Shown here one piece after another: positions 7,613 to 23,038 of a stretch of DNA of 23,038 bases. Source of the DNA: Myxococcales bacterium. Lineage in GTDB: Bacteria > Myxococcota_A > Polyangia > Haliangiales > Haliangiaceae. Location of the stretch: the NCBI GenBank assembly GCA_016708565.1, contig JADJFN010000037.1, forward strand, positions 128,001 through 151,038, given 5' to 3'. Within the stretch, counting starts at the first letter, position 1. Each line of letters starts with the position of its first letter. The position numbers and the translations under genes were made by a program. The notes under the pieces are model-generated. The model had not been told where the DNA came from and searched no databases. It saw only the letters and a program-made list of their open reading frames with translations.

Positions 7613-9619
7613 TCACGGATCGAGCGTGAGCGTGCCGAACCCGCTGGGCGCGTGGAAGTTGGGCTTGGCGGTGCGACCCGGGAACGCCATCAGGTAGCGG
7701 CGCGGCTTGCCGCCCTCCATGCGGTCGAGGCCGAGCGGCAGCACCGCGCCGGCGGTCAGCGCCGCGATCAGCTCGGGGGCGGCGATCGTGAACTCGATCG
7801 TGGCGGTGCCGGCGGCGGCGTCGCGGGTGGTGCCGATCGTCAGCGCGCCGGACCACGCGGTGTCCTCCTTCTTGACGCCGGGGCGGCCGCTGCGATCGAC
7901 CGCGATGTCGAACCAGTGGCCGAACGGGCCCACCTCGATCTCGAAGTAGCGCCGCGGCACCGCGGGATCGGGCGCGATGAACACCTCGACGCAGTCCTCC
8001 TGGTACAGGCCCACGCGCTCGACGTCGGTGGGGCGGCTGGTGTCGACCTTGAGCCCGGTGCCCTCGACCTGCCACAGCACGTGCAGGCCGCGGCTCGACC
8101 ACAGGAAGCGCACCGTCGACGCGTGCGGCGTCTTGGCGCCCATCCAGTCGGTGGCGAAGCGGTGGGCCGGGGCGCGATCCCAGATCGGCTCGATCGCGCC
8201 GTCCATCGCCGGCACCTCGGCGTCGTCGACGCGGGCGGCGTGGACCTGGCGATCCTCGGCGGCGGCGACGTCGTCGACGACGAAGTCGCCCATCGCGTAC
8301 AGCCGCGCCGGTCGCCGCTGCGCCAGCAAGCCCGCGCCGTCGCCGGTGACCGGCGGATCGGCGAGGTCGATCCCGAACCGCGCGGCCGCGACCTCGAGCA
8401 GCGGCGAGGTGCGATGGCCGCCCAGCTCGGCGGCGAGGCCGGCGTGATCCCACAGCCCCAGGAGCTGCGCGCCGACGCGATCGACCAGCACCGGGTTGGT
8501 GCCGCCGACGGCCATCGCCTCGGCCGACGGGAACAGCACCTGGAAGCCGTCGCCGCTCATCGCCGGCGCGCCCTCGGCGAGGATCACGTGCGGGGTCTCG
8601 ACCTCGAACACGTCGACCATGCGCTCGGCGAACTTCTCGAGCGCGGCGACGTAGACCTTGCGCGCGCGGGGGTCGCCCTTCTTCACCAGGTCGATCGCGG
8701 CGCCGACCTCCTTGTGGGTGCGCCACTTCTGGCGGTAGGCCGGCGCGGCGTCGCTGTACATCGCGGCGCCCTGCAGCGACTTGATCGCGATCGAGAACAC
8801 CGCGAACCGGTGCGCCTTGAGCTTGGGCAGCGAGATGAACAGGCCGTGATCGAGGTGCGCGGCGACGATCTTCGGGATCAGCAGCGTGGGCACGTGGGTG
8901 CCCGCCATGCCCGACAGCCCCAGCGGCTTGCCCGGCTGATCGCCCTCGACGTCGAACGTGCCGTCGTCGTCGAGCGCCACCAGCGGCACGCCCTCGTCGG
9001 CGCACATCTTGGCGTAGCCCGAGACGTCGATCAGCCGGTCCCAGTCCTTGGGCTGGCCGCCGAAGCCGTCGGCGACGGTGATCGCGGTGTGGCCGCGGGC
9101 CTTGAGGCAGCGGATCACGCCGCGCACGAACTCGGGATCGGTGGTGCGGCCGGCGACGCCGTTGTCGCCGCCGTTGCTCTTGGGGTTCTTGAACCAGTCG
9201 AAGCCGCTCATGTTGGGCTTGAGCAAGACCGGCGTGGCGGGCGGCCGCTTGGGCACGACCGCCTCGCACAGCCGCTGGCCCAGCTCGCGCGCGGTGCCGC
9301 CCTGCAGGATCGTCACCGGCGAGCGATCGGCGGCCAGCCGCGCGCGGTTGGCCTCGCGCAGCGCCGCGCCGTCGACGGTGTCGCCGACGACCACCGGCGG
9401 CCCGGCCTGCCACGCCGGCGACGCGCCGGTCGTGGTGTCGACCGCTGGCACCGCGGCCACCGCGGCGTCGGCGCTGGCCGTCGGGCGCGCGTCGAGCGGC
9501 GGCGCCACCGCGAGCGCGGCGTCGGCGTTGGCCGGCGGCGCGGTGGGCTTCGGCGCGTCGCCCTTGCCGCAGGCGGCGGTGGCGATCGTCGCGAGGGCGA
9601 GGCGGGTCCACGGGCGCAT
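7613..9619 (-). CDS. Lipoprotein with an N-terminal DUF362 domain and a C-terminal carbohydrate-binding-module-family-9-like (CBM9/DOMON-like) domain.
   Basis: The real start is the internal ATG at about 9617-9619 ('MRPWTRLALATIATAACGKG', a lipoprotein signal). The ORF-track N-terminal 170 aa overlap hpf on the opposite strand and are spurious. A DUF362-type block ('LLKPNMSGFDWFKNP...TAITVADGFGG') is followed by a CBM9-like block ('VRFLWSSRGLHVLWQVEG...YFEIEVGPFGHWFDIAV'). Confidence 0.65.
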   Translation of the reverse strand: MRPWTRLALATIATAACGKGDAPKPTAPPANADAALAVAPPLDARPTASADAAVAAVPAVDTTTGASPAWQAGPPVVVGDTVDGAALREANRARLAADRSPVTILQGGTARELGQRLCEAVVPKRPPATPVLLKPNMSGFDWFKNPKSNGGDNGVAGRTTDPEFVRGVIRCLKARGHTAITVADGFGGQPKDWDRLIDVSGYAKMCADEGVPLVALDDDGTFDVEGDQPGKPLGLSGMAGTHVPTLLIPKIVAAHLDHGLFISLPKLKAHRFAVFSIAIKSLQGAAMYSDAAPAYRQKWRTHKEVGAAIDLVKKGDPRARKVYVAALEKFAERMVDVFEVETPHVILAEGAPAMSGDGFQVLFPSAEAMAVGGTNPVLVDRVGAQLLGLWDHAGLAAELGGHRTSPLLEVAAARFGIDLADPPVTGDGAGLLAQRRPARLYAMGDFVVDDVAAAEDRQVHAARVDDAEVPAMDGAIEPIWDRAPAHRFATDWMGAKTPHASTVRFLWSSRGLHVLWQVEGTGLKVDTSRPTDVERVGLYQEDCVEVFIAPDPAVPRRYFEIEVGPFGHWFDIAVDRSGRPGVKKEDTAWSGALTIGTTRDAAAGTATIEFTIAAPELIAALTAGAVLPLGLDRMEGGKPRRYLMAFPGRTAKPNFHAPSGFGTLTLDP

Positions 9620-9793
9620 GGTGCGAGCTTCGACGGCGCGCGTCCGCGAGGCAAGGCGCGCGCGCGTGCCGATCTGGCACTGGCCGCGCCGCTTTGGCGC
9701 TCCGCGGCTCGAGACGGGGGACTGCCCGATCGCCGCGCGGTATCGCGATGTTCGGCCCTTGCGGGTGGGATGGCACGGCCCCACGGTGGAGGC

Positions 9794-10150
9794 ATGCCAA
9801 TCGAGGTCACGTTCCGTGGAATGGAGCCCTCCGAGTTCGTCGCTGCCCGCGCCCGTGAGTCCGCGGAGCAGCTCCTGGCCGGCGCGCCGGAGAGCGTCGG
9901 TTGCCGCGTCGTGATCGAGACCCCGCCCGGGCACCACAGCCACGGCCAACCGTTCCACGTCCGTGTCCACCTGATGGTGCCCGGTGACGACATCATCGTC
10001 GATCGCGATCCCGGCCGCGGCCCGCAGGCGCACGACGACGTCTACGTCGCACTCGCCGACGCGTTCCAGGTCGCGCGGCGCCGCGCCGATGAGCTCGGCC
10101 GCAAGCGCCGAGAGGCGCGCCGCCGCCACGACGTCGCTGCGTCGGAGTAG
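9794..10150 (+). CDS. hpf: Ribosome hibernation-promoting factor, short form (HPF/RaiA/YfiA, ribosomal S30AE family).
   Basis: 'MPIEVTFRGMEPSEFVAARARESAEQL...VRVHLMVPG...HDDVYVALADAFQVARRRADELGRKR' matches the S30AE beta-alpha-beta-beta-beta-alpha pattern, including the C-terminal 'DMYAAID..KLERQL' helix. GGAGG sits just upstream of the ATG. An alternative start at 9770 is possible. Confidence 0.72.
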   Translation: MPIEVTFRGMEPSEFVAARARESAEQLLAGAPESVGCRVVIETPPGHHSHGQPFHVRVHLMVPGDDIIVDRDPGRGPQAHDDVYVALADAFQVARRRADELGRKRREARRRHDVAASE

Positions 10151-10168
10151 CGTGGGCGCCCCGCGCTA
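10148..10168. terminator. Near-perfect 21-nt palindrome (tagcgtgggcgccccgcgcta) spanning both the hpf stop and the convergent minus-gene stop. Candidate bidirectional terminator hairpin.
   Basis: 9-bp stem (one G-T wobble) with a 3-nt loop, read directly. No U-tract, as is common in high-GC genomes. Confidence 0.4.
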
Positions 10169-10942
10169 GCGGCGATCCGCGGTGAAGCCGGTCGTGAACT
10201 TGATGCTGGCGCTGGCCACCAGCGCCTCGAGCTGGCCGTCCATGTTCGGGTCGCCGGCCCACAGGCAGCCGCCGGCGTAGCCGATCGTCACCAGGCCGGC
10301 GTCCATCGCGACCGCGCTCCAGTCGCCGGCGTCGGCCGTGCCCTCGGTGCGCAGCGACGCGTCGGCCACCGACCAGCCGAGCACGGCGCAGTTGAAGCCG
10401 TTGGTCGCGATGCCGGCGCCGAGGTACAGCCGGAACGTCTCGCCGGTCTCGCCGATCACGCCGAAGGTCTCGCGGTTCTCGGTGACGACGTCGCCGGTGC
10501 ACACGTCCTGGCAGTCCGGGTTGTTGGTGCCGGCGCCGCAGGTGCCGGCGGCCGGCCGCTCGAGCGCGCCGGTGCAGCGCTGGGTCGGCAGCGTCACGTA
10601 CATGCGATGCTCGAAGCCCGCGTCGCGCTGCTCGGCCAGCACCGACGCCGGCCACGCCTCGCTCGGGCACAGCACCTCGGGGCGGCCGCAGTCGAGGTTG
10701 AAGCGGAACGGCCGGCCCTCGTGCGTGATGTCGATGACCCCGCCCTGCGCGCCGAGCTCACGCGTGTACACCGCCGCGCCGATCTTCACCTCCACCCCGA
10801 TCGTGTCGTCGTACGTCACGTCCCACCAGCCGTTCACGTCCGGCGCCGGCGACTTCGAGTTCGCCGCGCACCCGTCGCCCTTCGCGCCGCCGAGCAGAGG
10901 GAGAGCCAGGACCAGGATCGCCGAGAGCTGGATGTTGCGCAT
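10166..10942 (-). CDS. Secreted Cys-rich hypothetical protein.
   Basis: Likely start at 'MRNIQLSAILVLALPLLGGAKG', a Sec signal. It has 12 or more Cys in the mature part and high GC3. A GGGGTGGGGC SD-like element lies upstream. Confidence 0.62.
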   Translation of the reverse strand: MRNIQLSAILVLALPLLGGAKGDGCAANSKSPAPDVNGWWDVTYDDTIGVEVKIGAAVYTRELGAQGGVIDITHEGRPFRFNLDCGRPEVLCPSEAWPASVLAEQRDAGFEHRMYVTLPTQRCTGALERPAAGTCGAGTNNPDCQDVCTGDVVTENRETFGVIGETGETFRLYLGAGIATNGFNCAVLGWSVADASLRTEGTADAGDWSAVAMDAGLVTIGYAGGCLWAGDPNMDGQLEALVASASIKFTTGFTADRR

Positions 10943-11033
10943 GCCCCACCCCATCGCAACCCGCGTTCCACCCCCGATCGCCAACGCCCGTTCACGCTTC
11001 ACATGGGGACAGGATCTACCCATCTACGCTGTT

Positions 11034-11045
11034 GATATTGTGGGA
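11034..11045 (+). promoter_or_regulatory. Direct repeat copy 1, GATATTGTGGGA. Candidate operator or promoter element upstream of the 10942 minus-strand gene.
   Basis: Exact 12-mer repeated 79 bp away (11113-11124). Lies in an AT-rich (~50% GC) intergenic island. Confidence 0.4.
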
Positions 11046-11112
11046 CTTCTTAGCCCTCTTGCGTCGCAAAAGGGGACACCTTCTACGGGGGCAAGGATTT
11101 GAAATCGCTTAG

Positions 11113-11124
11113 GATATTGTGGGA
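11113..11124 (+). promoter_or_regulatory. Direct repeat copy 2, GATATTGTGGGA.
   Basis: Identical 12-mer. The flanks also share CGCT...ACT. Confidence 0.4.
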
Positions 11125-11257
11125 ACTCGACTTGAGGCGAAACCCGACAGCGTCTCAAATGTCGTCAGCGAGGCGATTCCACAAGCGATTCTAACGGCTT
11201 ACGACCCAGGAATGTGTCCCTTTCTGCGACACACGAGCCCGGAAAACCGTTTAGATA

Positions 11258-11626
11258 TCAGTGATCTGGATGGGGGGATCCTGTCCCCAGCCAGCGGTCG
11301 AGGCAGTGCTCGGCGGCCTCGAGGAGCGCCTGGGCGGCGGCCTGCTCGGCGGGGGTGGGCGTGGCGGCGCGGACGACGTCGGGGTGGTCGAGGCCCCACT
11401 GGACGGCGAGGGCGGCGGCCTCGTCGGCGCACGCGGCGTCGGTGCAGGCGCAGGCCTGGTCGCGCTGGGCGGCGAGGGCGGCGAGGAGGGCGGCGGTGGC
11501 GGGATCGGGCGGCGGCGCGTCGACGGCGGCGTCGATGGGCGGCGGCGGCGGGACCGGGCGATCGGCGGGAGGTGGGGCGCCGCAGGCGGCCAGGCAGAGC
11601 AGGGCCAGCGCGGCGCGGGCGATCAC
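11258..11626 (-). CDS. Small Cys-rich lipoprotein, translationally coupled to frr.
   Basis: GTG start overlapping the frr TGA (GTGA). 'VIARAALALLCLAACGAPP' is a lipobox LAAC. Six Cys in 'QACACTDAACADE...EHCLDRW'. GGAG lies 10 nt upstream. Confidence 0.6.
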   Translation of the reverse strand: MIARAALALLCLAACGAPPPADRPVPPPPPIDAAVDAPPPDPATAALLAALAAQRDQACACTDAACADEAAALAVQWGLDHPDVVRAATPTPAEQAAAQALLEAAEHCLDRWLGTGSPHPDH

Positions 11627-12180
11627 AGCTCGGTGATCTCCTTCTCCTTGCCCTTCTCGAGCTCGTCGATCGAGGCGACGTAGCGATCGGTGAGGTCCTG
11701 GACCTTCTTCTCGCCGTTCTTCTTCTCGTCCTCGGTGATCGCCTTGTCCTTCTCGGCGTCCTTGAGCATGTCCATCGCGTCGCGGCGCGCCGCGCGCACG
11801 GCCACCTTGGCGTCCTCGGAGGTCTTCTTGATGCCCTTGACCAGGTCGCGGCGGCGCTCGGCGGTGAGCGGCGGGATCGGCACGCGCACCAGGTCGTTGT
11901 CGGCCACCGGGTTGAGGCCCAGGTCGGCGGCGCGGATCGCCTTGTCGATCGCCGGGACCATCGACTTCTCCCACGGCTTCACCGACAGCATGCGGGCGTC
12001 GACCACGGTCACCGTCGACACCTGGTTCACCGGCGTCGGCGTGCCGTAGTAGTCGACGCGCACGCCGTCGAGCATCGCCGGCGACGCGCGCCCGGTGCGC
12101 ACCTTGGCCAGCTCGCGCTTGAAGGCCTCGACGGCCTTCTTCATCCCGTCTTCCGCTTCGGTCGTGATGTCGTTCAGCAT
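11623..12180 (-). CDS. frr: Ribosome recycling factor.
   Basis: 185 aa, a clear RRF (e.g. 'DGVRVDYYGTPTPVNQVSTVTV...RVPIPPLTAERRRDLVK'). An AAGAGGAA SD lies upstream. Confidence 0.95.
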   Translation of the reverse strand: MLNDITTEAEDGMKKAVEAFKRELAKVRTGRASPAMLDGVRVDYYGTPTPVNQVSTVTVVDARMLSVKPWEKSMVPAIDKAIRAADLGLNPVADNDLVRVPIPPLTAERRRDLVKGIKKTSEDAKVAVRAARRDAMDMLKDAEKDKAITEDEKKNGEKKVQDLTDRYVASIDELEKGKEKEITEL

Positions 12181-12195
12181 GGTTCCTCTTGGACT

Positions 12196-12945
12196 CTACG
12201 CGAAACGCGAGCCTTCGTTGTCCTTGACGATGCGGGTGCCCACGTCCTCGCCGCACACCACCCGCTGGATGTTCCCGGCCTTGGTCATGTCGAACACGTT
12301 CATCGGCAGCTCGTTGTCGCGGCACAGCGCGAACGCGGTGGCGTCCATGACGCCGAGGTCCTGCTTGAGCGCGTCGGTGAACGTCACCTGCGCGTAGCGC
12401 CGCGCGTCGGCGTGCTTGCGCGGGTCCTTGTCGTAGACGCCGTCGACCTTGGTCGCCTTGAGCAAGATCTCGGCGCCGATCTCCATCGCCCGCAGCGCCG
12501 CGGCGGTGTCGGTGGTGAAGAACGGGTTGCCGGTGCCGGCGCCGAAGATCACGACGCGGCCCTTCTCGAGGTGGCGCATCGCGCGCCGCCGGATGTACGG
12601 CTCGGCCAGCTGCGACATCGGGATCGCCGACTGCACCCGCGTGGTCACGCCGGCGCGCTCGATCGCGTCCTGCAGCGACACCGCGTTCATCACCGTCGCC
12701 AGCATGCCGACGTAGTCGGCCGACGCCCGGTCCATGCCCTTGCTCGACTCGGTGAGCCCGCGGAAGATGTTGCCGCCGCCGACCACGACCGCCAGCTCGA
12801 CGCCGAGCTTCGCGGTCTCGGCGACCTCGGACGCGATGGTGCGGATGGTCTCGGGCGAGATCCCGTAGCCCTGGTTGCCCATCAGCGCCTCGCCCGACAG
12901 CTTGAGGAGCACCCGTTTGTACGCTGGTCGCGGCGCGGCGGTCAT
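12196..12945 (-). CDS. pyrH: UMP kinase.
   Basis: '[13 protein letters not shown]...[11 protein letters not shown]...[19 protein letters not shown]' is canonical PyrH. The true start is the internal ATG at 12943-12945, which aligns with the E. coli PyrH N-terminus. The ORF-track upstream extension is spurious. Confidence 0.95.
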
Positions 12946-13018
12946 GTGCGCGGGAACGTACAGGCGCGCCGGGCGTTTGGCCAGGGCTCGCCGGGCACCC
13001 GGTGGTACGCTGGCTTGG

Positions 13019-13405
13019 ATGCAGGAACCCCGCGACACGATCGTCGATCCCCAGATCCGGCGTGAGGTCGAGCCGCCGCGCCCCGACGCGCGGCGCCCCG
13101 TGCTGTTGATCGCGATCGTCGTGACCGCGGCCCTCGCGGGCGCGGCGGCCATGGCCCTGATCCGCGGTCCCCGGGCCGCGCCGCCGCCGCCGCCGCGCGC
13201 GGTGGCCCCGCCGGCCGCGGTCGCCCCCGTCGCCCCGGTCGCGCCGGTGCCGCCGGCGCCGGCTCCTGTGGTCGCGCCGGTCGCGCCGGTCGCGCCGACC
13301 GCGCTGCCCACCTCCCACGCGGGGGGGCCCTGCGTCGACTACCACCAGAAGGGCCTCAGCGAGGATCAGCCGCGCCGCGTCGACTGCCTCGACGGCCCGC
13401 GCTAG
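13019..13405 (+). CDS. Single-pass membrane-anchored protein with an (APV)n Pro/Ala/Val-rich linker and a small C-terminal Cys-pair module.
   Basis: ATG at 13019. Very high GC3. TM segment '[22 protein letters not shown]'. The C-terminus is '[19 protein letters not shown]'. Divergent from pyrH. Confidence 0.55.
13271..13297. repeat. 3 x 9-bp tandem repeat (gtcgcgccg) encoding VAP repeats, flanked by degenerate copies.
   Basis: Read directly in the sequence. Confidence 0.7.
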
Positions 13406-13436
13406 CCGCGCGAGCATCCCGGGCGACGCGCTCCGG

Positions 13437-14708
13437 TCAGCGCGCGACCCGCGCGGTCAGCGCCACCAGCACCTGGCCGCCGACCGCGGCTCGCGGGGCG
13501 CGATCGCCGTCGAGCCGCGCGTACGGCGACAGCCCGAACTCGCCGTAGACGTCGGCGCGCACGACGTCGGACAGCGGGTGGCCGAACGACGCGGACACGC
13601 CCACCGCGCGGTCGGCGTAGGTGCCGGCGTCGCGGGTCCAGGTGCGGGTGCGGGTGGCGAACGGCGCCAGCGCGAAGCTGCCGGCACCGAGCGTGCCGTC
13701 GAAGCGCGCGCTCACGCGGTCCTCGGCGGCGACGTTGCCGTCGAACGTCGGGAAGACGCTGCGCGCGACCGCGGCGCTGGCCCACAACTCCCCGGTGCGC
13801 ACGCCGACCGCCAGCCCGCCGACCGGGATCGTCAGCTCGGGCAGGCCTTCGCCGTCGATGGTCTCGGTCCACTCGTCGACCACCTCGCCGTCGACCGTGG
13901 TCTGGCTCGACGCGGTCATCTGGCCGCCGGTGAAGCCCCAGCCGCCGTGCGCCGCGGCGTACCAGCCGTCGCGATCGATCCGCGCGCGCAGCGGCAGCAG
14001 CGTGAACGCGGTGCCGCCGCGGTCGTCGTCGCCGACCTTGAGCCCGGCGCCCTCGATGACCAGCGCCTCGACCTTGGCGTCGGTGGCGCGGCCGGCGTAG
14101 TGGTACCAGTAGGTCGACATGTCGATCTCGAGCTGCGCGCTCCGGCCGTCGCCGGTGTCGTCGTGCTGCGTGACCACGCCGTGGCCGATCGTCATCATGA
14201 CGAACGCGTGGCGGTGCGGGGTGTCGCCCTTCCACAGCTCGCCGCCGCCGACCGTGACCCGCTCGGTCGAGCCGTCGTAGCGCCGCCGCCACAGCGACCG
14301 CCGACCGTCGAGCGCCGGCGCGACGCCGAGCTCGTGGACGCCGGTGATCTCGAACGTCAGCCCGACCCGCGACAGGCAGAAGCTCCACTGCGCGCTGCCG
14401 ACCGCGCGCTGCGCCGCCAGCGGCCGCAGCCGACCTTGCACCGCGCCGCTGACGATGTCGCAGCCGATGCCCGACACCGCCGCCGCGGCGCCGACGCCGA
14501 CGTCGGGGCCGCTCCCGGTGCCGGCGGTGACCTGGGCGAAGGCCGCGCCGTGCCAGTAAGGGCCAGTGGCCTCGTCCGACAGCAGGTCGCGCCGCGGCGC
14601 CAGGTCGAGCTGCGCCGCGCCGACCGCCAGATCGGCTGGCTGGGCGTTCGCCACGCCGGTCAGCAGGGCGAGGATCCCGAGCGCGACGAGGCGGTCCATG
14701 TCCGCCAC
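13437..14708 (-). CDS. Secreted hypothetical protein with a Sec signal peptide. Gly/Thr/Asp-rich and beta-rich, possibly outer-membrane or surface.
   Basis: 'MADMDRLVALGILALLTGVANAQP' is a signal peptide. 423 aa, high GC3. The start is ATG 14708 or 14699. Confidence 0.62.
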   Translation of the reverse strand: MADMDRLVALGILALLTGVANAQPADLAVGAAQLDLAPRRDLLSDEATGPYWHGAAFAQVTAGTGSGPDVGVGAAAAVSGIGCDIVSGAVQGRLRPLAAQRAVGSAQWSFCLSRVGLTFEITGVHELGVAPALDGRRSLWRRRYDGSTERVTVGGGELWKGDTPHRHAFVMMTIGHGVVTQHDDTGDGRSAQLEIDMSTYWYHYAGRATDAKVEALVIEGAGLKVGDDDRGGTAFTLLPLRARIDRDGWYAAAHGGWGFTGGQMTASSQTTVDGEVVDEWTETIDGEGLPELTIPVGGLAVGVRTGELWASAAVARSVFPTFDGNVAAEDRVSARFDGTLGAGSFALAPFATRTRTWTRDAGTYADRAVGVSASFGHPLSDVVRADVYGEFGLSPYARLDGDRAPRAAVGGQVLVALTARVAR

Positions 14709-14885
14709 TGGTGCAACGGTCGGTCCAGTGCGCAGGATGTCGAGATGGTTGAGGTTGGTGGCGGGATCCGTCCAGGATCGAACGGTGGTCGACCAGCCGA
14801 TCCGTCAGGTTGAGGACGGGTGCCGCGTCTGGGACGCCGTGCGGGGCCTGGGCTTGGTGGCCTCGGCCTTGCTGTACCAGCGGGC

Positions 14886-16240
14886 ATGAAGCGCCTCCTG
14901 GTGATCGCTGGGTTCGTGGTCGCGGCCGGCACCTCCACGGCCACCGCACAGCCGTGCGATCCCGGGGGCGAGCTGGTCGAGGTGACCGAGTACAGCGGCC
15001 GACAGCACTACCACCTCGCGCTGGCCGCCGGCGCGGGCGAGGCGCTGGTGGGCTGGGCGCCCGAGGGGCCCAACGGTGACGTGCCGCGCGAGTTCACGAT
15101 GAGCCGGGTGGCCGCGGACGGATCGACGTCGTCGATCCGCGTGCCGTTCCTCGGCCACGCTGCGATCGTCGGGACCCCGCCGATGACCAGCAGCGGCACC
15201 ACCGCGATGCACACGTGGGGCGTGGGGGCGTCGGCGTGATGCTGCGCGAGCCCGACGGCGCGGAGCGCGCCCCGATCCACCTCGACGACTACCGCAGCTA
15301 CGGCGACAGCGTCGTCCGCGCGCGCTTCGACGGCACGCACTTCGTCGTGACCTGGGTCGCCGGCCCGCCCGAGGCCAGCGTCCTCAAGGCGGTGCGCTTC
15401 GACCCCGACGGCGTCCAGCTCGACGCCACGCCGCTCGTGCTCGGCCCGGCGTTCGCGTACAAGCCGTGGGCCGCGTCGACGCGCATCGGCGACGTCACCT
15501 GGGTGATGTGGTCGACGTTCACGTCGTCGGACGCCGAGTTCGTCAGCGGCACGAACCCCGATCTGGTCGGCGTCCGCATCGCCGACGACGGCCGGCTCCT
15601 CGACGCGACGCCGGTAGTGCTGGTCCCGGGCGCGCGCGGCGTCGCGCTGGCCGCCAACGGCGACACCGCGCTGCTGCTGGTGATGGCCCCGGACGGCGGC
15701 TTCGACATGTCGACGATCGATCGCGACGGTGTCGTCACGCCGGGCGGCCACCTGGCGCTCGCCGACGATGAGTTCTTGCTCGAGCTGCTGGCGGCCCCGG
15801 GCGGCGACGGCTTCACGGCGTGGACCACGCACCCCGTTAACACCGGCACGCCGATCCACGCCGAGGACGAGGTCGCGGCCCGCACGATCAGCCGGACCGG
15901 CGTGGCCGCCGCGGCGCCGAGCCTGACGCTGGCCGGCCAGGCGTGGGCGATCTCCACCGACGGCCGCGACTACCTGCTGCTCGCCGTCGAGGAGACCGTC
16001 GCCGGGGCCACCGGCGAGGAGCGCCTGACCCTCCGGCGGTTCCGCGGCGGGACGTTCACGCCGGTCACCGTCGGGACGACGCTCGTCGCCGCGCCGCTCA
16101 CGCTCACCACCACGCAGTTCTGCAGCGGGCCCTACGAGCCGAACGACGGCTGCCAGGCGGGCGGCCCCGCGGGCGCGGGGACGATGGGGCTGATCGGGCT
16201 GGGCCTGCTCGCGCTCTGCCGCCGCCCGCGGCGCCGCTAG
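14886..16240 (+). CDS. Secreted repeat (beta-propeller-like) protein with an N-terminal signal peptide and a C-terminal MYXO-CTERM sorting tail. It is interrupted by an apparent +/-1 frameshift at about 15190-15236 (G4/G5 runs).
   Basis: Signal 'MKRLLVIAGFVVAAGTSTATAQP' in frame 0, stop at 15239. The frame-2 ORF from 15215 continues the same repeat pattern and ends in 'CQAGGPAGAGTMGLIGLGLLALCRRPRRR' (MYXO-CTERM-like). Both segments have high GC3. The second segment has no signal peptide of its own. Confidence 0.6.
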
Positions 16241-16256
16241 CCGCCCCGAAACGACG

Positions 16257-16282
16257 ACGGGCCCGCCTCGCGGCGAGCCCGT
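16257..16282. terminator. GC-rich hairpin (11-bp stem with 1 mismatch, 4-nt loop) between the convergent MYXO-CTERM gene and tsf. Candidate bidirectional terminator.
   Basis: acgggcccgcc-tcgc-ggcgagcccgt, read directly. It lies 17 nt after the plus-gene stop and 24 nt after the tsf stop. Confidence 0.45.
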
Positions 16283-16305
16283 GCGTCACGCGACGTGGAC
16301 CTGGA

Positions 16306-16962
16306 TCAGGCCATGCCGGCGGCCTTCGCCACCTCGGTCGCGAAGTCGTCCTTCTTCTTCTCGAGGCCCTCGCCCAGCTCGAAGCGGGCGAAGCGGCGGA
16401 CCTTGATGTTCTCGCCGATCTTCGCGATCAGCTCCTGCTGGAGCTGCTCGATGGTCTTGTCGGGGTTCTTCACGAACGGCTGGTCGAGCAGGCAGATGTC
16501 CTTGAGCCACTTGCTGAGCTGGCCCTCGACCATCTTCTGCGCGATCGCCTCGGGCTTGCCGCTCTCGACGGCCTTGGCCACCAGCACGGCGCGCTCGCGG
16601 GCGATGACGTCCTCGGCGACCTCCTCGCGGCGGACGAACTGCGGGCCCATCGCGGCGATCTGCATCGCGACGTCCTTCGTGAAGCCGACGAAGTCCTCGT
16701 TGCGGGCGACGAAGTCGGTCTCGCAGTTGATCTCGACGAGGACGCCGATGCGGCCGCCGCCGTGGATGTACGAGACGACGGCGCCCTCGGTGGCCTCGCG
16801 GCCGGCCTTCTTGGCGGCCTTGGCCAGGCCCTTGGCGCGGAGGAAGTCGATCGACTTCTCCATGTCGCCGTCGCACTCGACCAGCGCCTTCTTGCAGTCG
16901 GCCATGCCGGCGCCGGTGCGCTCGCGCAGATCCTTGATCATCGTGGCGGTCACTTCAGCCAT
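16306..16962 (-). CDS. tsf: Elongation factor Ts (short form).
   Basis: 'MAEVTATMIKDLRERTGAGMADCKKAL' closely matches the EF-Ts N-terminus. Confidence 0.95.
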   Translation of the reverse strand: MAEVTATMIKDLRERTGAGMADCKKALVECDGDMEKSIDFLRAKGLAKAAKKAGREATEGAVVSYIHGGGRIGVLVEINCETDFVARNEDFVGFTKDVAMQIAAMGPQFVRREEVAEDVIARERAVLVAKAVESGKPEAIAQKMVEGQLSKWLKDICLLDQPFVKNPDKTIEQLQQELIAKIGENIKVRRFARFELGEGLEKKKDDFATEVAKAAGMA

Positions 16963-17042
16963 GGGAGTCTCCTGATGCTCGATGCGAGAAAGCCGCGGAC
17001 CTGGCCGCGGCGCGTTCAGTCAGTGGGAACGGGGCGCGGGAT

Positions 17043-17921
<879 letters not shown>

Positions 17922-18011
17922 GGTCGTAGCTCGCTTTCTTCCGTTGGGCCTCCGGCGCGTCGTCGGACCCCTGACACCCGCTAGGCGGGCACGGACGAGG
18001 TCCTCGGCAAC

Positions 18012-18027
18012 CGTGGGAGTTGTGGGA
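18012..18027 (+). promoter_or_regulatory. Tandem GTGGGAG-TTGTGGGAG motif about 98 nt upstream of the rpsB start. It shares the TTGTGGGA core with the 11034 and 11113 repeats.
   Basis: Read directly. Same orientation relative to the downstream minus-strand gene and at a similar distance as the repeats upstream of the 10942 gene. Confidence 0.3.
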
Positions 18028-18158
18028 GCGCGCGATCTAGCACGCCCGAGCGGCGCGAGGCAAGGTCCTGGATCGACGGTGTTTCCTCAGTGATCGCGTA
18101 GTGTTGGCGCAGCGCAGGTGGCACCGGCGCTGGCGGTGGTGCGGCCCCTTGGTCGGCC

Positions 18159-18650
18159 CTAGCGGATCGCGGCGATGACGGCGGGCAGGGCGGCGTAGTC
18201 GGAGGCGCGGGGCTCGTCGAGGCGCAGCCGGACCCGGCCGGCGGCGTCGACGATCAGCACGGTGGGCAGCTGGTGGACGCCGAGCGGCGGGCCCTCGACG
18301 GTCTGGGTGCGATCGCGGCCGATCGGGAAGCGGGCGGGGACCTCGGCGAGGAACGCGTCGACTGCGGCGTCGTCCTCGTCGACCGACAGCCCGAGCACCG
18401 CGACGGTGGGATCGGCGGCCAGGTCGTTGAGGTGCGGGAACGAGTGCTTGCAGGGCAGGCAGTAGCTGGCCCACACGTCGATCACGACGACCTTGCCGGC
18501 CAGCTCGGCGCTGGCCCAGGTGCCGCCGCCGCGCAGCGGGTAGCTCAGCGCGGGGAGCGGCGCCGCCTGCTCGGCGGGCACCGCGGTCGGCGGCGGCGGC
18601 GCGCTGGCGCACGCGGCGGCGAGGAGGGACGACAGCAGCAGCGAGCGCAT
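18159..18650 (-). CDS. TlpA/ResA-like thiol:disulfide oxidoreductase (thioredoxin fold, CxxC), lipoprotein.
   Basis: Lipoprotein signal 'MRSLLLSSLLAAACASAPP'. Active site 'WASYCLPCKHSFP'. 163 aa. Confidence 0.85.
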   Translation of the reverse strand: MRSLLLSSLLAAACASAPPPPTAVPAEQAAPLPALSYPLRGGGTWASAELAGKVVVIDVWASYCLPCKHSFPHLNDLAADPTVAVLGLSVDEDDAAVDAFLAEVPARFPIGRDRTQTVEGPPLGVHQLPTVLIVDAAGRVRLRLDEPRASDYAALPAVIAAIR

Positions 18651-18706
18651 CGCCGCACCATAGCCCGCGCGGTTGCGCGCGCCACGCGATCGGCCAAGCT
18701 GCCGCG

Positions 18707-19424
18707 ATGCGCATCCGGGTCGCGGTCGCCGCCGCGCTGATCATGCTCCCCGCCACCCCGCGGCTGGCCGAGGCTTGAGGCATCGGTGCGCCCGTCGGTC
18801 CGACGGGCTGTGAGGGGGAACGCGCCGCCGACGACCACGTACTTCGTGAGCGTCGCGGCCGCGGCGGCGTCGACCCGGCTGGTGTTCGACGGCGATCGCG
18901 ACGTCGAGCTCGACCAGCAGGCGATCACCGTGAGCGTCGGCCAGGTGCGGCCGTCGCGGTGGAGCGTGCGCGCGTCGCTGGGCGCGGTGCTCGACGGCGC
19001 GCTGGCCGGCGAGGGCCGGCGCTACCAGCTCGACCCTGGCGTGGTCGGCGCGATCGCGATCGCGCGGCCGTGGACCTGGGGGCCGTGGTTCGTGCACGGC
19101 ACGGCGTCGCTGGGCGCGTCGCGGGTCACGACCACCGAGCGGGTGGCCGGCGCGCCGACCGAGGGCCTGGTGGCGATCGACGCGCGGATCGGCGCGACCG
19201 CCGGCCGCCAGCTGGGCCCGGTCATGCCCTACGCGCTGGCCCGCGCGTTCGGCGGGCCGGTGCTGTGGACGATCGACGGCGCCGGCGTGACCGGCACCGA
19301 CGCCTACCACGTGCAGCTCGGCGCCGGCGCGACGCTGTCGATCGGCGACGCCTGGTCGGTGATGATCGACGTCGCCGCGCTGGGCGAGCGCGCCGCGTCG
19401 GTCGGCGTGAGCTGGCGGCGGTAG
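18707..19424 (+). CDS. Secreted beta-rich hypothetical protein. The signal-peptide exon ('MRIRVAVAAALIMLPATPRLAEA', frame 2) is separated from the mature-domain frame (from 18786, frame 0) by an apparent 1-nt frameshift near C4 runs at about 18745-18790.
   Basis: Both frames show high GC3, and the GC3 signal switches frame around 18760-18786. The frame-2 reading is a canonical signal peptide ending AEA followed by TGA. Confidence 0.5.
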
Positions 19425-19442
19425 CGCGGCCGCGGCGCGACG

Positions 19443-19782
19443 CTAGCGTGGGGGCGTGGGCGTGAACGCGGCGCGGATGTAGGCCAGCACCTGGCGCTGC
19501 TGCTCGGCGCTGAGGATCGCCCGCCACGCGGGCATCGCGCCGATGCGCCCGACCGTGCCGTCCGCGATGCTGCGCAGGAGCGCGTCGTCGGGGCGCGCCA
19601 GCGCGCGCGTCGCCGACGAAGTCGGCGGCCAGCTTCCCATCGAGGCCGCGGCCGTCGGCCTGGTGGCAGGCCTGGCAGTGCGTCGCGTAGATCGCGCGCC
19701 CCGGCAGGTCGCTGGCGGGGGCGGCGGTCGTGGGCAGGCCGACGCCGCGGGCCAACAGCGCGGCGCAGGCGACGGCGATCAC
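19443..19782 (-). CDS. Small class-I c-type cytochrome (CQACH haem motif), with an apparent 1-nt frameshift in a (GC)n tract at about 19598-19615.
   Basis: The N-terminal part ('...AIYATHCQACHQADGRGLDGKLAADFVGD') is in one frame and the C-terminal part ('RALARPDDALLRSIADGTVGRIGAMPAWRAILSAEQQRQVLAYIRAAF') in another. Together they form a typical cytochrome c fold signature. The GTG start overlaps the upstream gene stop (GTGA). Confidence 0.68.
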
Positions 19783-20179
19783 CAGGCAGGGAGCTGCAGC
19801 ACCGCGCAGCGCGACATCCGGGCAAACTGGCCCGGGCGCGGCTCGATCGGCCGCTTGCGCGCGTGGCGGAAGTGCCACGGCAGCACCACGTACTGCGGGT
19901 AGACCTCGAGCCCGACCATCGCGGCGATCGCACCCAGCTTCACCCAGAACACCGGGTTGGCGCTGTAGAAGGCCAGCGGCTTTCGAGCTGCCCGAACAGC
20001 CGCCACAGCCCGCCGCCGAACAGCAGCAGCGCGGCGATGCCGTTGCCGTTGTCGGCGAAGCGGGTGGCGGCGACGTCCTGCCGTCGCAGCGCGACCAGCC
20101 GCAGCGCGCCGAACGCGGCGGCGAGCGCGAAGCCGCCCACATGGACGATCGAGGCGATGGCCGCGGTGAGGCCGGGCAT
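19779..20179 (-). CDS. DUF2214-like small polytopic membrane protein, with an apparent 1-nt frameshift at an A/T run at about 19978-19990.
   Basis: N-terminal frame 'MPGLTAAIASIVHVGGFALAAAFGALRLVALRR...LLLFGGGLWRLFGQLE'. C-terminal frame 'KPLAFYSANPVFWVKLGAIAAMVGLEVYPQYVVLPWHFRHARKRPIEP'. Restoring one A gives a continuous ~130-aa protein. The family assignment is from memory. Confidence 0.5.
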
Positions 20180-20210
20180 CGCGGCGATGGTAGCGAGCGA
20201 TCGCCGCGCG

Positions 20211-21679
20211 CTACCAGGCGTCGCCGACGGTCGCGGTCGGCAGGGCGTCGTGGATGGCGCGGGCGAGGGCGGCGCGGCGGCCAGCGGGGACGCGCAGCCA
20301 GACCGCGACGACGCGGCGGCGATCGCGGTGGACGATCGCGCTGGGCCCGCTGTGCGCGGTGACGGTCACGAGGTCGCGCAGCGGGACCGCGCCGACGCGC
20401 GGCGAGGTGACGGTCAGGTCGAGGTGCGGCTCCTCGCCGGGCGGCCAGGCGATCCGGACCTCGAGCTCGTCGGGCCCGTCGACGACGTGGCTGAGCGGTG
20501 CGTCGCCCAGCGAGACCCGCAGCGCGTCGGCGACCGCGACCACCGGGACGCCGAGGTCGGCGGCGCGGGCGCGATCGATCGTGATCTCGCGGCTGACGGC
20601 CCGGCGCGGATCGACGAGCGGCGGGTAGCTGGCGGCGGTGAGCGGGCGACGGCGCGCTCGCCGGTGGTCAGCGCGACGTCGAGGTCGGCGGCCGGCAGCA
20701 GCGCCTCGAGCGCGACCACGCCGCGCCCGGCCCAGCGGACCGCGCCGAGGCCGCGGCGCGCGACGATCCCGTCGATCGCGGCCAGCGCGCGCTCGTCGAC
20801 GCCGGCCGCGACCAGCACCTCGAGCGCGGGCGGCTCGCGGCGCACGCGCACGGCGGCGCGCCGGCTCGCAGCAGCTCGCCGGCGATCGCGTCGACGTCGG
20901 CGTCGGCGTCGGGCAGCGCGACCAGCCCGACCACGGTCTGCGGCGGCAGCACCTCGGCCCCGCCGTCGCGCAGCGCCGCGGCCACCGCCCGTGCCGTCGC
21001 TGGCGACCGGACCTCGATCGCGACGATCAGCCCGGGCCCGGCCGGCGTGTGACCGACGCACGACGCCACGGCGGCGCGCTCGAGGACCGCGACGTCGCGC
21101 AGCCGCACGCCGTCGCGCAGCGGCAGGCCTTCGAGGTCGGCGAGCCCGGCGCCGGTGGTGCGGATCGTCGTGGCGACGCCGGTGGCGTCGATGCGCCCGG
21201 CCGGCAGCGCGGTGTTGGCGCGCAGCGCCGCCAGCAGGTCCGTGGCGGTCAGCCCATACGCGGCCAGCCGCGCCGGATCGAGCCGCACCTGCAGCTGGTC
21301 GTCGACGAGGCCGCACACGTCGACCGCGGTCACGCCTTCCAGCACCTCGGTGCGCCGCTGCAGCTCGCGGCCGCGGTCGGTGGCGCGGCGCGGATCGTCG
21401 GTCGCCGGCAGCGGCACGATGGCGAGCACCGTCGGCGTGCGCCACGCGCGGGTGATCATCGGCGGCCGGGCGTCCGGCCGGCAGTCGGGGCAGGGCGGGT
21501 GATCGCGTCGCGGGCCGCCGCGGCGAGCCGCTCGACGGCGGCCGGCGACCGCGCGGCCAGCTCGATGACGGCGACGTCTCGACCGCGCGGCCGTCGACGC
21601 GCGCCACGCCCGGCAAGCCGGCGTCGCCGCAGCCGATGAACGCGGCGAGCGCGGCGAGCGCGAGGGTGCGGCGACGCAT
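20211..21679 (-). pseudogene. RND-transporter (AcrB/CzcA-type) periplasmic porter-domain-like gene with a lipoprotein signal ('MRRRTLALAALAAFIGCGD'). It is fragmented over three frames and lacks the transmembrane domains. Probable relic.
   Basis: Frame segments 'DVCGLVDDQLQVRLDPARLAAYGLTATDLLAALRANTALPAGRID...VRLRDVAVLE...IVAIEVRSP...LRDGGAEVLPPQTVVGLVALPDADA' and 'VPLRDLVTVTAHSGPSAIVHRDRRRVVAVWLRVPAG...LPTATVGDAW' resemble the repeated AcrB porter subdomains. There are several frame switches, and about 1.5 kb is too short for a full RND pump. Confidence 0.4.
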
Positions 21680-21704
21680 GCGCGATCAGGTACCACACGC
21701 GCGA

Positions 21705-22057
21705 TCACTCCGCGGTGATGCCCCCGAACACCTGGTACTGGCCGGGCTGCACCTCGACCCGATCGAGCGTCAGCGTCCACAGGCCCGAGACGTTGTCGCT
21801 GCCGAGCTCGAAGGTGTCGAACAGCGCGCCGTCGACGCGGACCTCCAGCGCGCCGTTGGCGACGTCCCGGGGCGCGGTGAGCGTGGCCGCGGGGACGCTG
21901 CCGTAGTCGGTCGCGCCGACCTCGACCCGCAGCGTGACGTCGGCCTGGTTGTCGACCTGGATCTGCTTCTCGCCGGCGCCGTCGTCATCGGTGCAGGCGC
22001 CGGCGAGCGCGAGGCTGAGGGGAGGAGCGCGGCGAGGCGGAGCGGGGAGGCGGGCAT
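21705..22057 (-). CDS. Small lipoprotein, with an apparent 1-nt frameshift in a C4/G4 run at about 22015-22025 inside the signal peptide.
   Basis: ATG at 22055-22057 gives 'MPASPLRLAALL'. After the shift it reads 'PLSLALAGACTDDDGAGEKQIQVDNQADVTLRVEVGATDYG...' through to the stop at 21705. Lipobox LAGAC. Confidence 0.5.
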
Positions 22058-22180
22058 GGCCGCGACCACAGCAACCCGCGGGCCAGCGGTCGCGACCGCG
22101 ACCGGCGCCCGCCTGGCCCGCCGTCATGACCGCGCGTTCACGGCGCGTGCGTCGCCGGATGGTCGCGGTAGCCTCGACGT

Positions 22181-22579
22181 GTGATCGTCACCCCGGTGCG
22201 CTGCGAGACCCAGCCGCCGCCGCGCGTGGCCCCGCCGGTCGCGCGCGCGCCGGACGACGAGGACGCCGACGCGCCGGCCGGCGACCTGGTGTGCGCGACG
22301 TGCGGGCGGCGGGTCACCCACGACGACCACCGCGTCGCGGTCAACGGCGCGCACGAGCACACGTTCGTCAACCCCGGCGGCTTCGTCCACGTCGTCGGCT
22401 GCTTCGCGCTGGCCACCGGCCTGGCCTACGTCGGTGATCCGCAGTCGGCGTTCTCGTGGTTCCCCGGCTTCCGCTGGCAGATCGCCGCGTGCGGCGGCTG
22501 CGTGCACCTCGGCTGGATCTTCCGCGCCGCCGGCGATCAGTTTCACGGCCTGTTGCCGGCGCAGCTACGGCGCGGCTGA
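22181..22579 (+). CDS. Bacterial cereblon-like CULT-domain protein (thalidomide-binding-domain homolog, Yippee/MsrB-like beta-tent zinc fold).
   Basis: 'LVCATCGRRV...HEHTFVNPGGFVHVVGCFALATGLAYVGDPQSAFSWFPGFRWQIAACGGCVHLGWIF' aligns motif-for-motif with the human CRBN thalidomide-binding domain ('[26 protein letters not shown]'). Both CxxC pairs and the three cage Trp are present. GTG start. Confidence 0.8.
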   Translation: MIVTPVRCETQPPPRVAPPVARAPDDEDADAPAGDLVCATCGRRVTHDDHRVAVNGAHEHTFVNPGGFVHVVGCFALATGLAYVGDPQSAFSWFPGFRWQIAACGGCVHLGWIFRAAGDQFHGLLPAQLRRG

Positions 22580-22600
22580 CGCAGCTACGGCGCGGCTGAC
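22561..22600. repeat. Perfect 20-bp tandem duplication (gcagctacggcgcggctgac x2). The first copy contains the stop codon of the CULT gene.
   Basis: Read directly. Confidence 0.85.
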
Positions 22601-23038
22601 GCGCGCAGCACGCCGACCCGGCTGCCGCGCGGCACGCCGTCGGTGAGCATCGCCGCGGCCGCGTCGGCGTAGGGCACCGTCATCGCGCCGAGCTGCGCCA
22701 GGAAGCGCGGCAACAGCAACGCCGCCGGCAGCGGCGGCCCCGCCATCGGCAGGCGATCGATCGCCAGCCGCGCGCGCTGGCCCGAGCGCGGGCCCTCGAG
22801 CATCGGCCCCGGGGCACAAGAGCCGCCAGTCGATCGTCGACGCTCGCAGCCGGCGCAGGTTGGCGCCGTGCGGCCAGAACAGCGCGCGCACGCCGGGCAG
22901 GTCCATGCCGGTGCGGTCGCTGTCACCGAGCTCCGAGCAGGCCGGCGCCGGCGGTGAACCACGCCGCCGGGCGCGCGTCCGGCGGCAGCGCCTCGAGCGC
23001 GGTCACGAGCCGATCGACCAGCGCGACGAAGCGATCGC
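22585..23038 (-). pseudogene. NAD(P)H-binding (NmrA/atypical-SDR-like) protein, C-terminal part. The gene continues beyond the window and is spread over three frames.
   Basis: Frame pieces 'DRFVALVDRLVTALEALPPDARPAAWFTAGAGLLGA', 'DLPGVRALFWPHGANLRRLRASTIDWRLLCPG' and 'AIDRLPMAGPP...LAQLGAMTVPYADAAAAMLTDGVPRGSRVGVL' each have high GC3 and resemble the C-terminal half of NAD(P)H-binding domain proteins. At least two frame switches. Confidence 0.35.

What the first reader, a model, noticed from the sequence alone, without database searches (positions are those of the whole stretch)
22181..22579. Bacterial cereblon-like CULT-domain protein
The domain aligns strongly with the thalidomide-binding domain of human cereblon. 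Both CxxC zinc pairs and the aromatic-cage tryptophans ('FSWFPGFRWQIAACGGCVHLGW') are conserved. Single-domain bacterial homologs are rare and their ligands are unknown, but uridine-like or cyclic-imide ligands have been proposed. It is flanked here by damaged lipoprotein and oxidoreductase genes.
Basis: partly seen in the sequence, partly recalled or inferred. Interest (0 to 1): 0.5.

Follow-up and report, generated by a model that had tools for sequence, protein, structure and literature searches.

The report
Bacterial cereblon-like (CULT) protein, one-residue deletion
This is a real gene for a small bacterial relative of the thalidomide-binding domain of human cereblon, a protein family already known and common in its bacterial group, but this copy lacks one residue that every other relative examined has and sits in a stretch of frameshift-ridden DNA.

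Summary
The ORF at 22181-22579 (+) is real and encodes a 132-aa single-domain CULT (cereblon thalidomide-binding domain) protein. It matches the Magnetospirillum homologue MsCI4 at E=1.5e-22 and human cereblon at about 1e-11. The AlphaFold model superposes on MsCI4 crystal structures (TM 0.82-0.88, rmsd 1.6-2.0 A). Both CxxC zinc pairs, the NPxG loop and the three cage tryptophans are present. There is no MsrB or Yippee assignment.

The family is known: Lupas et al. 2015 described bacterial CULT proteins, mainly from delta-proteobacteria including Haliangium. It is not small in absolute terms, with 1,096 50%-identity clusters at E<=1e-10 and 135 matches among species-representative genomes, mostly Kofleriaceae/Myxococcota MAGs. 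Orthologues at 89-96% identity are already public.

This copy has a 3-nt deletion that removes the residue after the second CxxC, a spacing invariant in 268 of 268 homologous domains. The flanking 3.6 kb carries at least ten window-specific frameshifts in genes that are intact in close relatives. The deletion is either a local assembly error or real decay.

No universal operon partner was found. One related clade places the CULT gene upstream of an RNase II-type exoribonuclease. Verdict: an ordinary new member of a known family, of low interest.

The parts
22181..22579 (+). CULT-domain gene (132 aa plus stop). Residues 1-34 are a disordered, poorly conserved N-terminal tail; residues 35-132 are the beta-tent CULT core.
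22292..22303 (+). First zinc knuckle CATC (C38, C41), equivalent to MsCI4 C24/C27
22370..22381 (+). NPGG hairpin tip ('sensor loop'; N64 = MsCI4 N50 = human N351). N64, P65 and G67 are invariant and G66 nearly invariant in the alignment.
22457..22477 (+). W93...W99, the first two tryptophans of the aromatic cage (MsCI4 W79, W85)
22490..22501 (+). Second zinc knuckle CGGC (C104, C107), equivalent to MsCI4 C90/C93
22499..22504 (+). Site of the window-specific 3-nt deletion (relatives GGCTGCGGCGTG, window GGCTGCGTG). It removes the Gly that follows the second CxxC.
22514..22522 (+). W112-I113-F114: the third cage tryptophan (MsCI4 W99) and the Phe equivalent to MsCI4 Y101 / human F402
22560..22599 (.). 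Perfect 2 x 20-bp tandem duplication CGCAGCTACGGCGCGGCTGA. Copy 1 ends the CULT gene (…QLRRG*). Copy 2 ends the convergent NAD(P)H-binding gene (…SAAP*).
21705..22069 (-). Small (117 aa in relatives) lipoprotein gene, divergent from the CULT gene. It is broken by a -1 frameshift (G5 to G4) near 22018, within its signal peptide.
22585..23038 (-). 3' two-thirds of an NAD(P)H-binding (NAD_binding_10/NmrA-like) gene, convergent with the CULT gene. It has four window-specific frameshifting indels (about 22775, 22792, 22811 and 22933) and is cut by the window end.
20206..21679 (-). AcrB-like gene with a lipoprotein-type signal peptide (528 aa and intact in relatives). In the window it has five frameshifts and a 108-bp deletion.

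Best explanation
The gene encodes a stand-alone, probably cytoplasmic CULT-domain protein, the bacterial single-domain counterpart of cereblon's thalidomide-binding domain. It comes from a Kofleriaceae-like myxobacterium.

Shown here:
- A beta-tent fold.
- Four cysteines (C38, C41, C104, C107) placed to bind one structural zinc.
- A cage of three tryptophans (W93, W99, W112) plus F114, with the NPGG loop beside it.

[quoted passage not shown] The protein would therefore act as a small-molecule or protein-end 'reader', not as an enzyme. It lacks cereblon's Lon-like and DDB1-binding parts, so it cannot be a ubiquitin-ligase receptor. Its cellular partner is unknown.

This particular copy lacks the residue that follows the second CxxC, which every other family member examined has. 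As sequenced, it may fold or bind less well. The deletion may instead be an assembly error in a low-quality contig end.
For: - Sequence: E=1.5e-22 to MsCI4 over residues 35-131 and about 1e-11 to human cereblon TBD.
- Fold: AF2 mean pLDDT 81.6, with the core (residues 31-132) at 82-96 by ten-residue blocks. Foldseek top 50 hits are all cereblon/MsCI4, with target TM 0.82-0.88 and rmsd 1.6-2.0 A at about 40% identity.
- Residues: three of the four zinc cysteines (C38, C104, C107), all three cage tryptophans, and N64, P65 and G67 are invariant in a 32-sequence alignment; C41 and G66 are nearly invariant.
- Coding and selection: coding-type GC3. dN/dS of 0.06-0.3 among close orthologues, with nearly all changes in the N-terminal tail.
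- Architecture: no hydrophobic signal sequence; 132 aa with no other domain.
- Ligands: uridine and thalidomide binding by MsCI4 (PMC4449219). C-terminal cyclic imides as physiological cereblon ligands (bioRxiv 10.64898/2026.08.28.747849).
Against: - The CxxC-x3-GW spacing is unique. All 268 homologous domains retrieved have x4, as do MsCI4 and human cereblon.
- The window protein is the only one of 32 aligned members that loses even the weak PF03226 match. Re-inserting Gly restores it.
- pLDDT of the block 101-110 drops from 98 in orthologue P0001 to 92.
- The allele was not found in JGI metagenomes, while the undeleted allele was.
- Neighbouring genes are frameshifted, so the copy may be decaying.
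- No binding was measured. No bacterial function is known. No conserved partner gene was found across phyla.
Confidence: 0.85

Rival explanations
1. The one-residue deletion and the surrounding frameshifts are assembly or sequencing errors at a poorly supported contig end. On this reading the real gene has the Gly and is an ordinary functional CULT gene.
For: - All indels are specific to the window when polarised against two to three relatives.
- Several lie in homopolymers or short GC repeats: G5 to G4, TT to T, GGGCCCC, CCCCGGG.
- They start abruptly at about 19.44 kb. The preceding 19.4 kb shows long, unbroken coding frames.
- The window ends 230 bp short of the start of the NAD gene.
- CULT substitutions still look selected (dN/dS 0.12-0.28).
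- The deletion allele is absent from metagenome contigs while the undeleted allele is present.
Against: - A clean -3 in a GGC/TGC trinucleotide context is also typical of real replication slippage.
- The other changes in this stretch (a 108-bp deletion, a 740-bp window-only segment, the 20-bp duplication that L006 shares in a 24-bp form) look like real structural variation.
- No reads are available to check.
Confidence: 0.4
2. The deletion is real, and the CULT gene is an impaired copy inside a multi-gene segment that is decaying in this lineage. In effect it is an incipient pseudogene.
For: - At least ten window-specific frameshifts occur in three flanking genes that are intact in L006, L002 and L086.
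- In the AcrB-like gene, window-specific substitutions are spread 18:10:23 over codon positions. Their ratio to indels is about 0.1, as expected for neutral drift.
- At that indel density about two hits are expected in 399 bp. One hit and an intact frame is therefore not significant evidence of protection (my estimate: P about 0.12 for no frameshift).
- The deletion hits a position of invariant length next to a zinc ligand.
Against: - The only indel in the CULT gene is in-frame, whereas 10 of 11 in the neighbours are not.
- The CULT core differs from orthologues by only three conservative substitutions.
- AF2 still builds the fold with high confidence.
- The codon-position test is not decisive, because the AcrB-like gene evolves fast in all lineages.
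Confidence: 0.3
3. It is an MsrB (methionine sulfoxide reductase B) or a Yippee/Mis18-type protein rather than a CULT protein.
For: These families share the beta-tent fold and the two CxxC pairs (PMC4287342). PF03226 gives weak hits to 31 of 32 relatives and SelR to 3 of 32.
Against: - All those hits are below Pfam's thresholds (16 bits against 26.6), and there is none for the window protein.
- The protein has no catalytic Cys after the second CxxC.
- The three cage tryptophans specific to CULT are present.
- Every significant PDB sequence match is cereblon, and so are all 50 Foldseek matches listed.
Confidence: 0.02
4. It is a chance ORF in very GC-rich DNA.
For: At 75% GC, long ORFs occur in all six frames. 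A 140-aa antisense ORF overlaps it.
Against: The GC3/GC2 pattern, hundreds of homologues, purifying selection and a confident fold all argue against this.
Confidence: 0.01

Closest known systems
MsCI4 (MGR_0879), the single-domain cereblon homologue of Magnetospirillum gryphiswaldense; PDB 4V2Y and more than 50 further entries
   Same: Same single-domain architecture, about 40% identity and the same fold (TM 0.82-0.88). The Zn(Cys)4 site, the tri-Trp cage and the NPxG loop are all shared.
   Different: The window protein has Phe (as in human F402) where MsCI4 has Y101. It has a longer disordered N-terminal tail. It has one residue fewer between the second CxxC and the third Trp.
Bacterial CULT group of Lupas et al. 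2015 (PMC4287342), e.g. Haliangium ochraceum WP_012831591; NCBI 'cereblon family protein' of Kofleriaceae MAGs
   Same: Same family and same taxonomic neighbourhood (Myxococcota). Orthologues at 89-96% identity are public (P0001, P0002; L006 = JAEUJY010000031, Myxococcales MAG-81).
   Different: Only the delta-Gly allele and the local gene order differ.
Human cereblon (CRBN) thalidomide-binding domain
   Same: Pocket residues and zinc site are the same. E is about 1e-11, with about 30% identity in the structural alignment.
   Different: There is no Lon-like domain, no DDB1-binding region and no ubiquitin system. The downstream consequence of ligand binding must therefore differ.
Yippee/Mis18 (PF03226) and MsrB (PF01641)
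   Same: Beta-tent fold with two CxxC pairs.
   Different: These families have no tri-Trp cage. The window protein has no MsrB catalytic Cys. Profile matches are sub-threshold or absent.

Membership tests
CULT domain (Lupas et al. 2015) | Two CxxC motifs that bind one structural zinc | tested here: met
   C38-x2-C41 and C104-x2-C107 align to MsCI4 C24/C27/C90/C93. Zinc binding itself was not measured.
CULT domain (Lupas et al. 2015) | Three invariant tryptophans forming the aromatic cage | tested here: met
   W93, W99 and W112 align to MsCI4 W79, W85 and W99. They are invariant in 32 of 32 sequences.
CULT domain (Lupas et al. 2015) | [quoted passage not shown] | tested here: met
   The window has V63-N64-P65-G66-G67. 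N64, P65 and G67 are invariant and G66 nearly invariant.
CULT domain (Lupas et al. 2015) | Beta-tent fold superposable on solved CULT domains | tested here: met
   AF2 model, core pLDDT 82-96 by ten-residue blocks. Foldseek TM 0.82-0.88 and rmsd 1.6-2.0 A to MsCI4. This is a prediction, not an experiment.
CULT domain (Lupas et al. 2015) | Fixed spacing W-x5-W-x4-CxxC-x4-GW (empirically invariant, not part of the formal definition) | tested here: not met
   The window has CxxC-x3-GW. All 268 homologous domains have x4, as do MsCI4 and human CRBN.
CULT domain (Lupas et al. 2015) | Binding of glutarimide- or uracil-type ligands in the cage | not testable with these tools
   Shown for MsCI4 (PMC4449219). 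Only inferred here.
Bacterial single-domain CULT group | The protein consists entirely of the CULT domain, with no signal peptide | tested here: met
   132 aa with no other Pfam or NCBIfam domain. The N-terminal 34 residues are disordered and non-hydrophobic.
Cereblon proper (CRL4 substrate receptor) | N-terminal Lon-like domain and DDB1-binding region | tested here: not met
   PDB matches cover only the C-terminal TBD of cereblon chains (e.g. residues 311-369 of 406). The query has no sequence for the rest.
MsrB (SelR, PF01641) | Significant SelR profile match and a catalytic Cys C-terminal to the second CxxC | tested here: not met
   No SelR hit at E<=10 for the window protein. There is no Cys after C107.
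Yippee/Mis18 (PF03226) | Profile match above the gathering score | tested here: not met
   No hit for the window protein.

The most novel reading that the evidence does not exclude
Bacterial single-domain CULT proteins may be uridine/uracil (or cyclic-imide) sensors that work with RNA decay. In 18 of about 83 loci examined, all from a Kofleriaceae-type clade, the CULT gene lies upstream on the same strand of an RNase II-type RNB exoribonuclease. In eight of them the two genes are adjacent or nearly so. If that link is functional, the ancestral job of the cereblon pocket would be nucleoside recognition. The window's clade would then have lost the linkage, and its delta-Gly allele would be either a tolerated pocket variant or a sign of loss.
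Probability: 0.1. Interest if true: 0.55.

Novelty: new member of a known kind. Interest (0 to 1): 0.2.

Why it matters
The physiological role of bacterial cereblon homologues is still unknown, although one of them (MsCI4) is a standard tool for degrader-drug discovery. This locus adds little to that question. The gene is monocistronic between unrelated, broken genes. Near-identical orthologues are already public, and the family was described in 2015.

Two minor practical points follow. First, Kofleriaceae-type myxobacteria hold many diverse CULT proteins with a human-like Phe at the Y101 position, which could serve as alternative model proteins. Second, the invariant CxxC-x4-GW spacing can be used as a quality check for such sequences. 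The CULT-RNB synteny seen in a sister clade is a cheap lead for anyone studying the native ligand.

Tried and rejected
- Direct Pfam and NCBIfam scans of the protein gave only noise. Identification therefore rests on PDB sequence and fold matches.
- An exact-sequence look-up of the protein in the assembly index found nothing.
- Neighbourhood clustering of ORFs within 4 kb of the CULT gene in 83 loci found no partner shared across phyla, only clade-level synteny.
- A codon-position test of window-specific substitutions, meant to separate pseudogene decay from sequencing error, was not decisive.
- An exact search for the deletion allele in metagenome contigs found none. The control pattern found two contigs with the undeleted allele.
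- Comparing AF2 models with and without the Gly showed only a 6-point pLDDT drop in one block. This is too small to judge function.
- P0123 ('22 stretches') and P0178 looked like multi-CULT proteins. They are Lon-domain-bearing cereblon-type sequences with repeated segments, probably eukaryotic with assembly artefacts.
- Promoter and terminator consensus scans, Rfam and tRNA scans of the window found nothing relevant.
- Literature searches found no study of the native function of bacterial CULT proteins.

Full report
**The observation.** The window has about 75% GC, so ORFs occur in all six frames. The ORF at 22181..22579 (+) has the composition of a real gene: GC at codon positions 1/2/3 is 0.76/0.56/0.94. 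Its translation contains the quoted FSWFPGFRWQIAACGGCVHLGW. An in-frame stop lies three codons upstream of the GTG at 22181. The close relatives begin at the same GTG, so the start is reasonably fixed. The overlapping 140-aa antisense ORF is a shadow ORF.

**What it is.**
- Pfam and NCBIfam give only noise for the protein.
- phmmer against all PDB chains gives E=1.5e-22 to 'cereblon isoform 4' of Magnetospirillum gryphiswaldense (MsCI4) over residues 35-131. It gives 5e-12 to 4e-10 to human and mouse cereblon. Nothing else is significant.
- From that alignment, C38/C41/C104/C107 correspond to the zinc ligands C24/C27/C90/C93. N64 corresponds to N50. W93/W99/W112 correspond to the cage residues W79/W85/W99. 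F114 corresponds to Y101 (Phe in human, F402).
- An AlphaFold2 model built on 32 homologues has mean pLDDT 81.6, with the core at 82-96 by ten-residue blocks and a disordered tail at residues 1-34.
- Foldseek against the PDB returns only MsCI4 and cereblon among the 50 matches listed. Target-normalised TM is 0.82-0.88 and rmsd 1.6-2.0 A.
SelR gives nothing for the window protein and three weak hits among 32 homologues. Yippee-Mis18 is sub-threshold in relatives (16 bits against 26.6). There is no cysteine after C107.

**How common and how new.**
- A word-indexed search found 328 homologues. The best are 96% (P0001) and 90% (P0002) identical in the alignment, and several carry the NCBI name 'cereblon family protein [Kofleriaceae bacterium]'.
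- An exhaustive HMMER search of 1.84 billion cluster representatives found 1,967 at E<=1e-3 and 1,096 at E<=1e-10. The top 150 are almost all 100-225 aa, which I take to be single-domain proteins.
- Two peptide patterns alone recovered 135 matches among 185,579 species-representative genomes. Most are Kofleriaceae, Haliangiales or Myxococcales MAGs. Scattered hits come from Acidobacteriota, Desulfobacterota, Magnetococcales, Chloroflexota and others.
- The closest match is 93% identical: JAEUJY010000031, 'Myxococcales bacterium MAG-81' (L006).
- Lupas et al. 2015 (PMC4287342) already defined this bacterial group as 'primarily in delta-proteobacteria', including Haliangium ochraceum.
- The protein is therefore a new member of a known family. 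It is rare as a fraction of species but not in absolute numbers.

- In the alignment, the window protein is the only sequence lacking the residue after the second CxxC. It reads ACGGC-VHLGW where relatives read ACGGCGVHLGW.
- A motif count over all 267 retrieved homologues shows CxxC-x4-GW in 268 of 268 matching domains, against x3 only in the window. The two proteins that do not match the motif are truncated or chimeric.
- At the DNA level it is a clean 3-nt loss: relatives GGCTGCGGCGTG, window GGCTGCGTG.
- The window protein is the only one of 32 that loses the weak PF03226 match. Re-inserting Gly restores it exactly to the level of P0001.
- AF2 tolerates the deletion. Block 101-110 drops only from pLDDT 98 in P0001 to 92.
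- An exact search of JGI metagenome contigs found no copy of the deletion allele. A control pattern allowing 0-3 extra bases found two contigs, both with the 3 extra bases.

**Surroundings.**
- The window is chromosomal. It carries frr (11623-12177), pyrH (12196-13308), tsf (16306-17019) and rpsB (17043-18086), followed by a thioredoxin-like gene.
- In the relatives L002, L006 and L086-L090, the CULT gene is preceded on the opposite strand by a 117-aa lipoprotein gene and a 528-aa AcrB-like gene. It is followed convergently either by a 231-aa NAD_binding_10/NmrA-like gene (L006, L086, L088) or directly by an SNF2 helicase (L002). The gene is therefore monocistronic, and its neighbours vary even among close relatives.
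- In the window these neighbours are broken:
  - The AcrB-like gene has five frameshifts and a 108-bp deletion.
  - The lipoprotein gene has a G5 to G4 frameshift in its signal peptide.
  - The NAD(P)H-binding gene has -2, -1, +1 and +1 indels.
- Each of these indels is window-specific when polarised against two or three relatives.
- A 740-bp segment (19442-20182) has no counterpart in L002 or L006. It contains pieces of a cytochrome c gene (CQACH) and of a possible membrane protein (hydrophobic stretches, not tested), in several frames.
- A GC3 frame plot shows long coherent frames up to about 19.4 kb and frame switches every 200-450 bp after that.
It is part of a wider 3.6-kb block of indel damage.

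**Error or decay?**
- For error: several indels sit in homopolymers or short repeats; the onset is abrupt; the damaged block runs to the end of the window; and the CULT substitutions still look selected (dN/dS 0.12-0.28 against relatives).
- For real decay: a -3 in a GGC/TGC repeat is classic slippage; larger structural changes occur in the same stretch; and window-specific substitutions in the AcrB-like gene are spread 18:10:23 over codon positions.
- With about ten frameshifts in about 1.9 kb of flanking genes, roughly two would be expected in the 399-bp CULT gene. Its intact frame is only weak evidence of protection (my estimate: P about 0.12).
- I cannot decide without the reads. I rate error at 0.4, real and harmful at 0.3, and real but tolerated as the remainder.

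**Mechanism.**
- Shown by sequence and model: a Zn(Cys)4-pinned beta-tent with a tri-Trp pocket.
- Inferred from MsCI4 and human structures and binding data (PMC4449219; bioRxiv 10.64898/2026.08.28.747849): the pocket binds cyclic imide or lactam rings such as glutarimide, aspartimide or uracil.
- The protein has no catalytic residues, no signal peptide and no further domain. The likeliest role is a cytoplasmic reader of a uracil- or cyclic-imide-type group that hands the signal to an unknown partner.
- It cannot work as cereblon does, because it has no Lon-like or DDB1-binding part and the host has no ubiquitin system.

**Context across the family.** Clustering of ORFs within 4 kb of the CULT gene in 83 loci found no partner conserved across phyla. 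Two clade-level patterns appeared, neither of them in the window's own clade:
- In 18 loci, all Kofleriaceae, Haliangiales or unclassified myxobacterial MAGs, an RNB-domain exoribonuclease lies downstream. It matches PF00773 at E=4.5e-73 and carries an RNase II C-terminal S1 domain. It is on the same strand in 17 of the 18, and within about 70 bp in eight.
- In 13 loci a DUF4259 gene sits divergently upstream.

Because MsCI4 binds uridine, the RNB linkage is a lead worth a test. It may, however, be inherited synteny only.

**Verdict.** The finding is an ordinary new member of a known family. The copy may be damaged or mis-sequenced, and the locus offers no special handle on the open question of bacterial CULT function. 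Interest is 0.2.

Noticed in passing
window 22560-22599: There is a perfect 2 x 20-bp tandem duplication (CGCAGCTACGGCGCGGCTGA) at the CULT stop codon. In L086 and L088 the sequence is single-copy, and the convergent CULT and NAD(P)H-binding genes overlap by 15 nt. In the window, and as a 24-bp imperfect version in L006, the duplication gives each gene its own 3' end.
   Followed up: partly
window 19442-23038 versus 1-19441: Frameshifting indels are confined to the last 3.6 kb. At least ten are window-specific, and there is also a 108-bp deletion. The first 19.4 kb shows long unbroken coding frames. This is either a low-quality contig end or a decaying multi-gene segment.
   Followed up: partly
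window 19442-20182: A 740-bp segment has no counterpart in L006, where the flanking genes abut. In L002 an ADP-ribosylglycohydrolase gene occupies the same slot. The window segment holds fragments of a c-type cytochrome (CQACH … MPAW) and of a possible membrane protein (hydrophobic stretches, not tested), in several frames. This looks like a hot spot of gene-content variation among close strains.
   Followed up: partly
L018-L021, L025, L028, L029, L036-L038, L040, L043, L046, L049, L051, L052, L055, L083 (e.g. L029:6355-7788): In 18 Kofleriaceae-type loci an RNase II-type RNB exoribonuclease with a C-terminal S1 domain lies downstream of the CULT gene. It is on the same strand in 17 of the 18 and directly adjacent in eight. 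This may be a functional link to uridine or RNA. It is absent from the window's clade.
   Followed up: partly
L022, L028, L029, L036-L038, L043, L046, L049, L051, L055, L062, L083 (e.g. L029:5537-5935): A DUF4259 gene lies immediately upstream of the CULT gene, divergently oriented, in 13 loci.
   Followed up: no
window 20206-21679 (-); intact in L006:3921-5504 and L002:2213-3790: This is a 528-aa protein with a lipoprotein-type signal peptide (MRRRTLALAALAAFIGC). The intact L006 copy matches AcrB profile positions 41-299, and window fragments match positions 161-300 and 734-834. It is far shorter than the 1021-position AcrB profile, so it appears to be a truncated, AcrB-like stand-alone protein.
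   Followed up: no
window 11623-18086: The conserved rpsB-tsf … pyrH-frr cluster is interrupted between tsf and pyrH by about 3 kb (13437-16240). That stretch holds two ORFs with no Pfam match.
   Followed up: no
P0034 (ENA contig of 1009 nt): A 203-aa predicted protein joins the first 84 residues of a close CULT orthologue to a sequence with a PF01339 match. It is probably a chimeric short contig rather than a real fusion.
   Followed up: no
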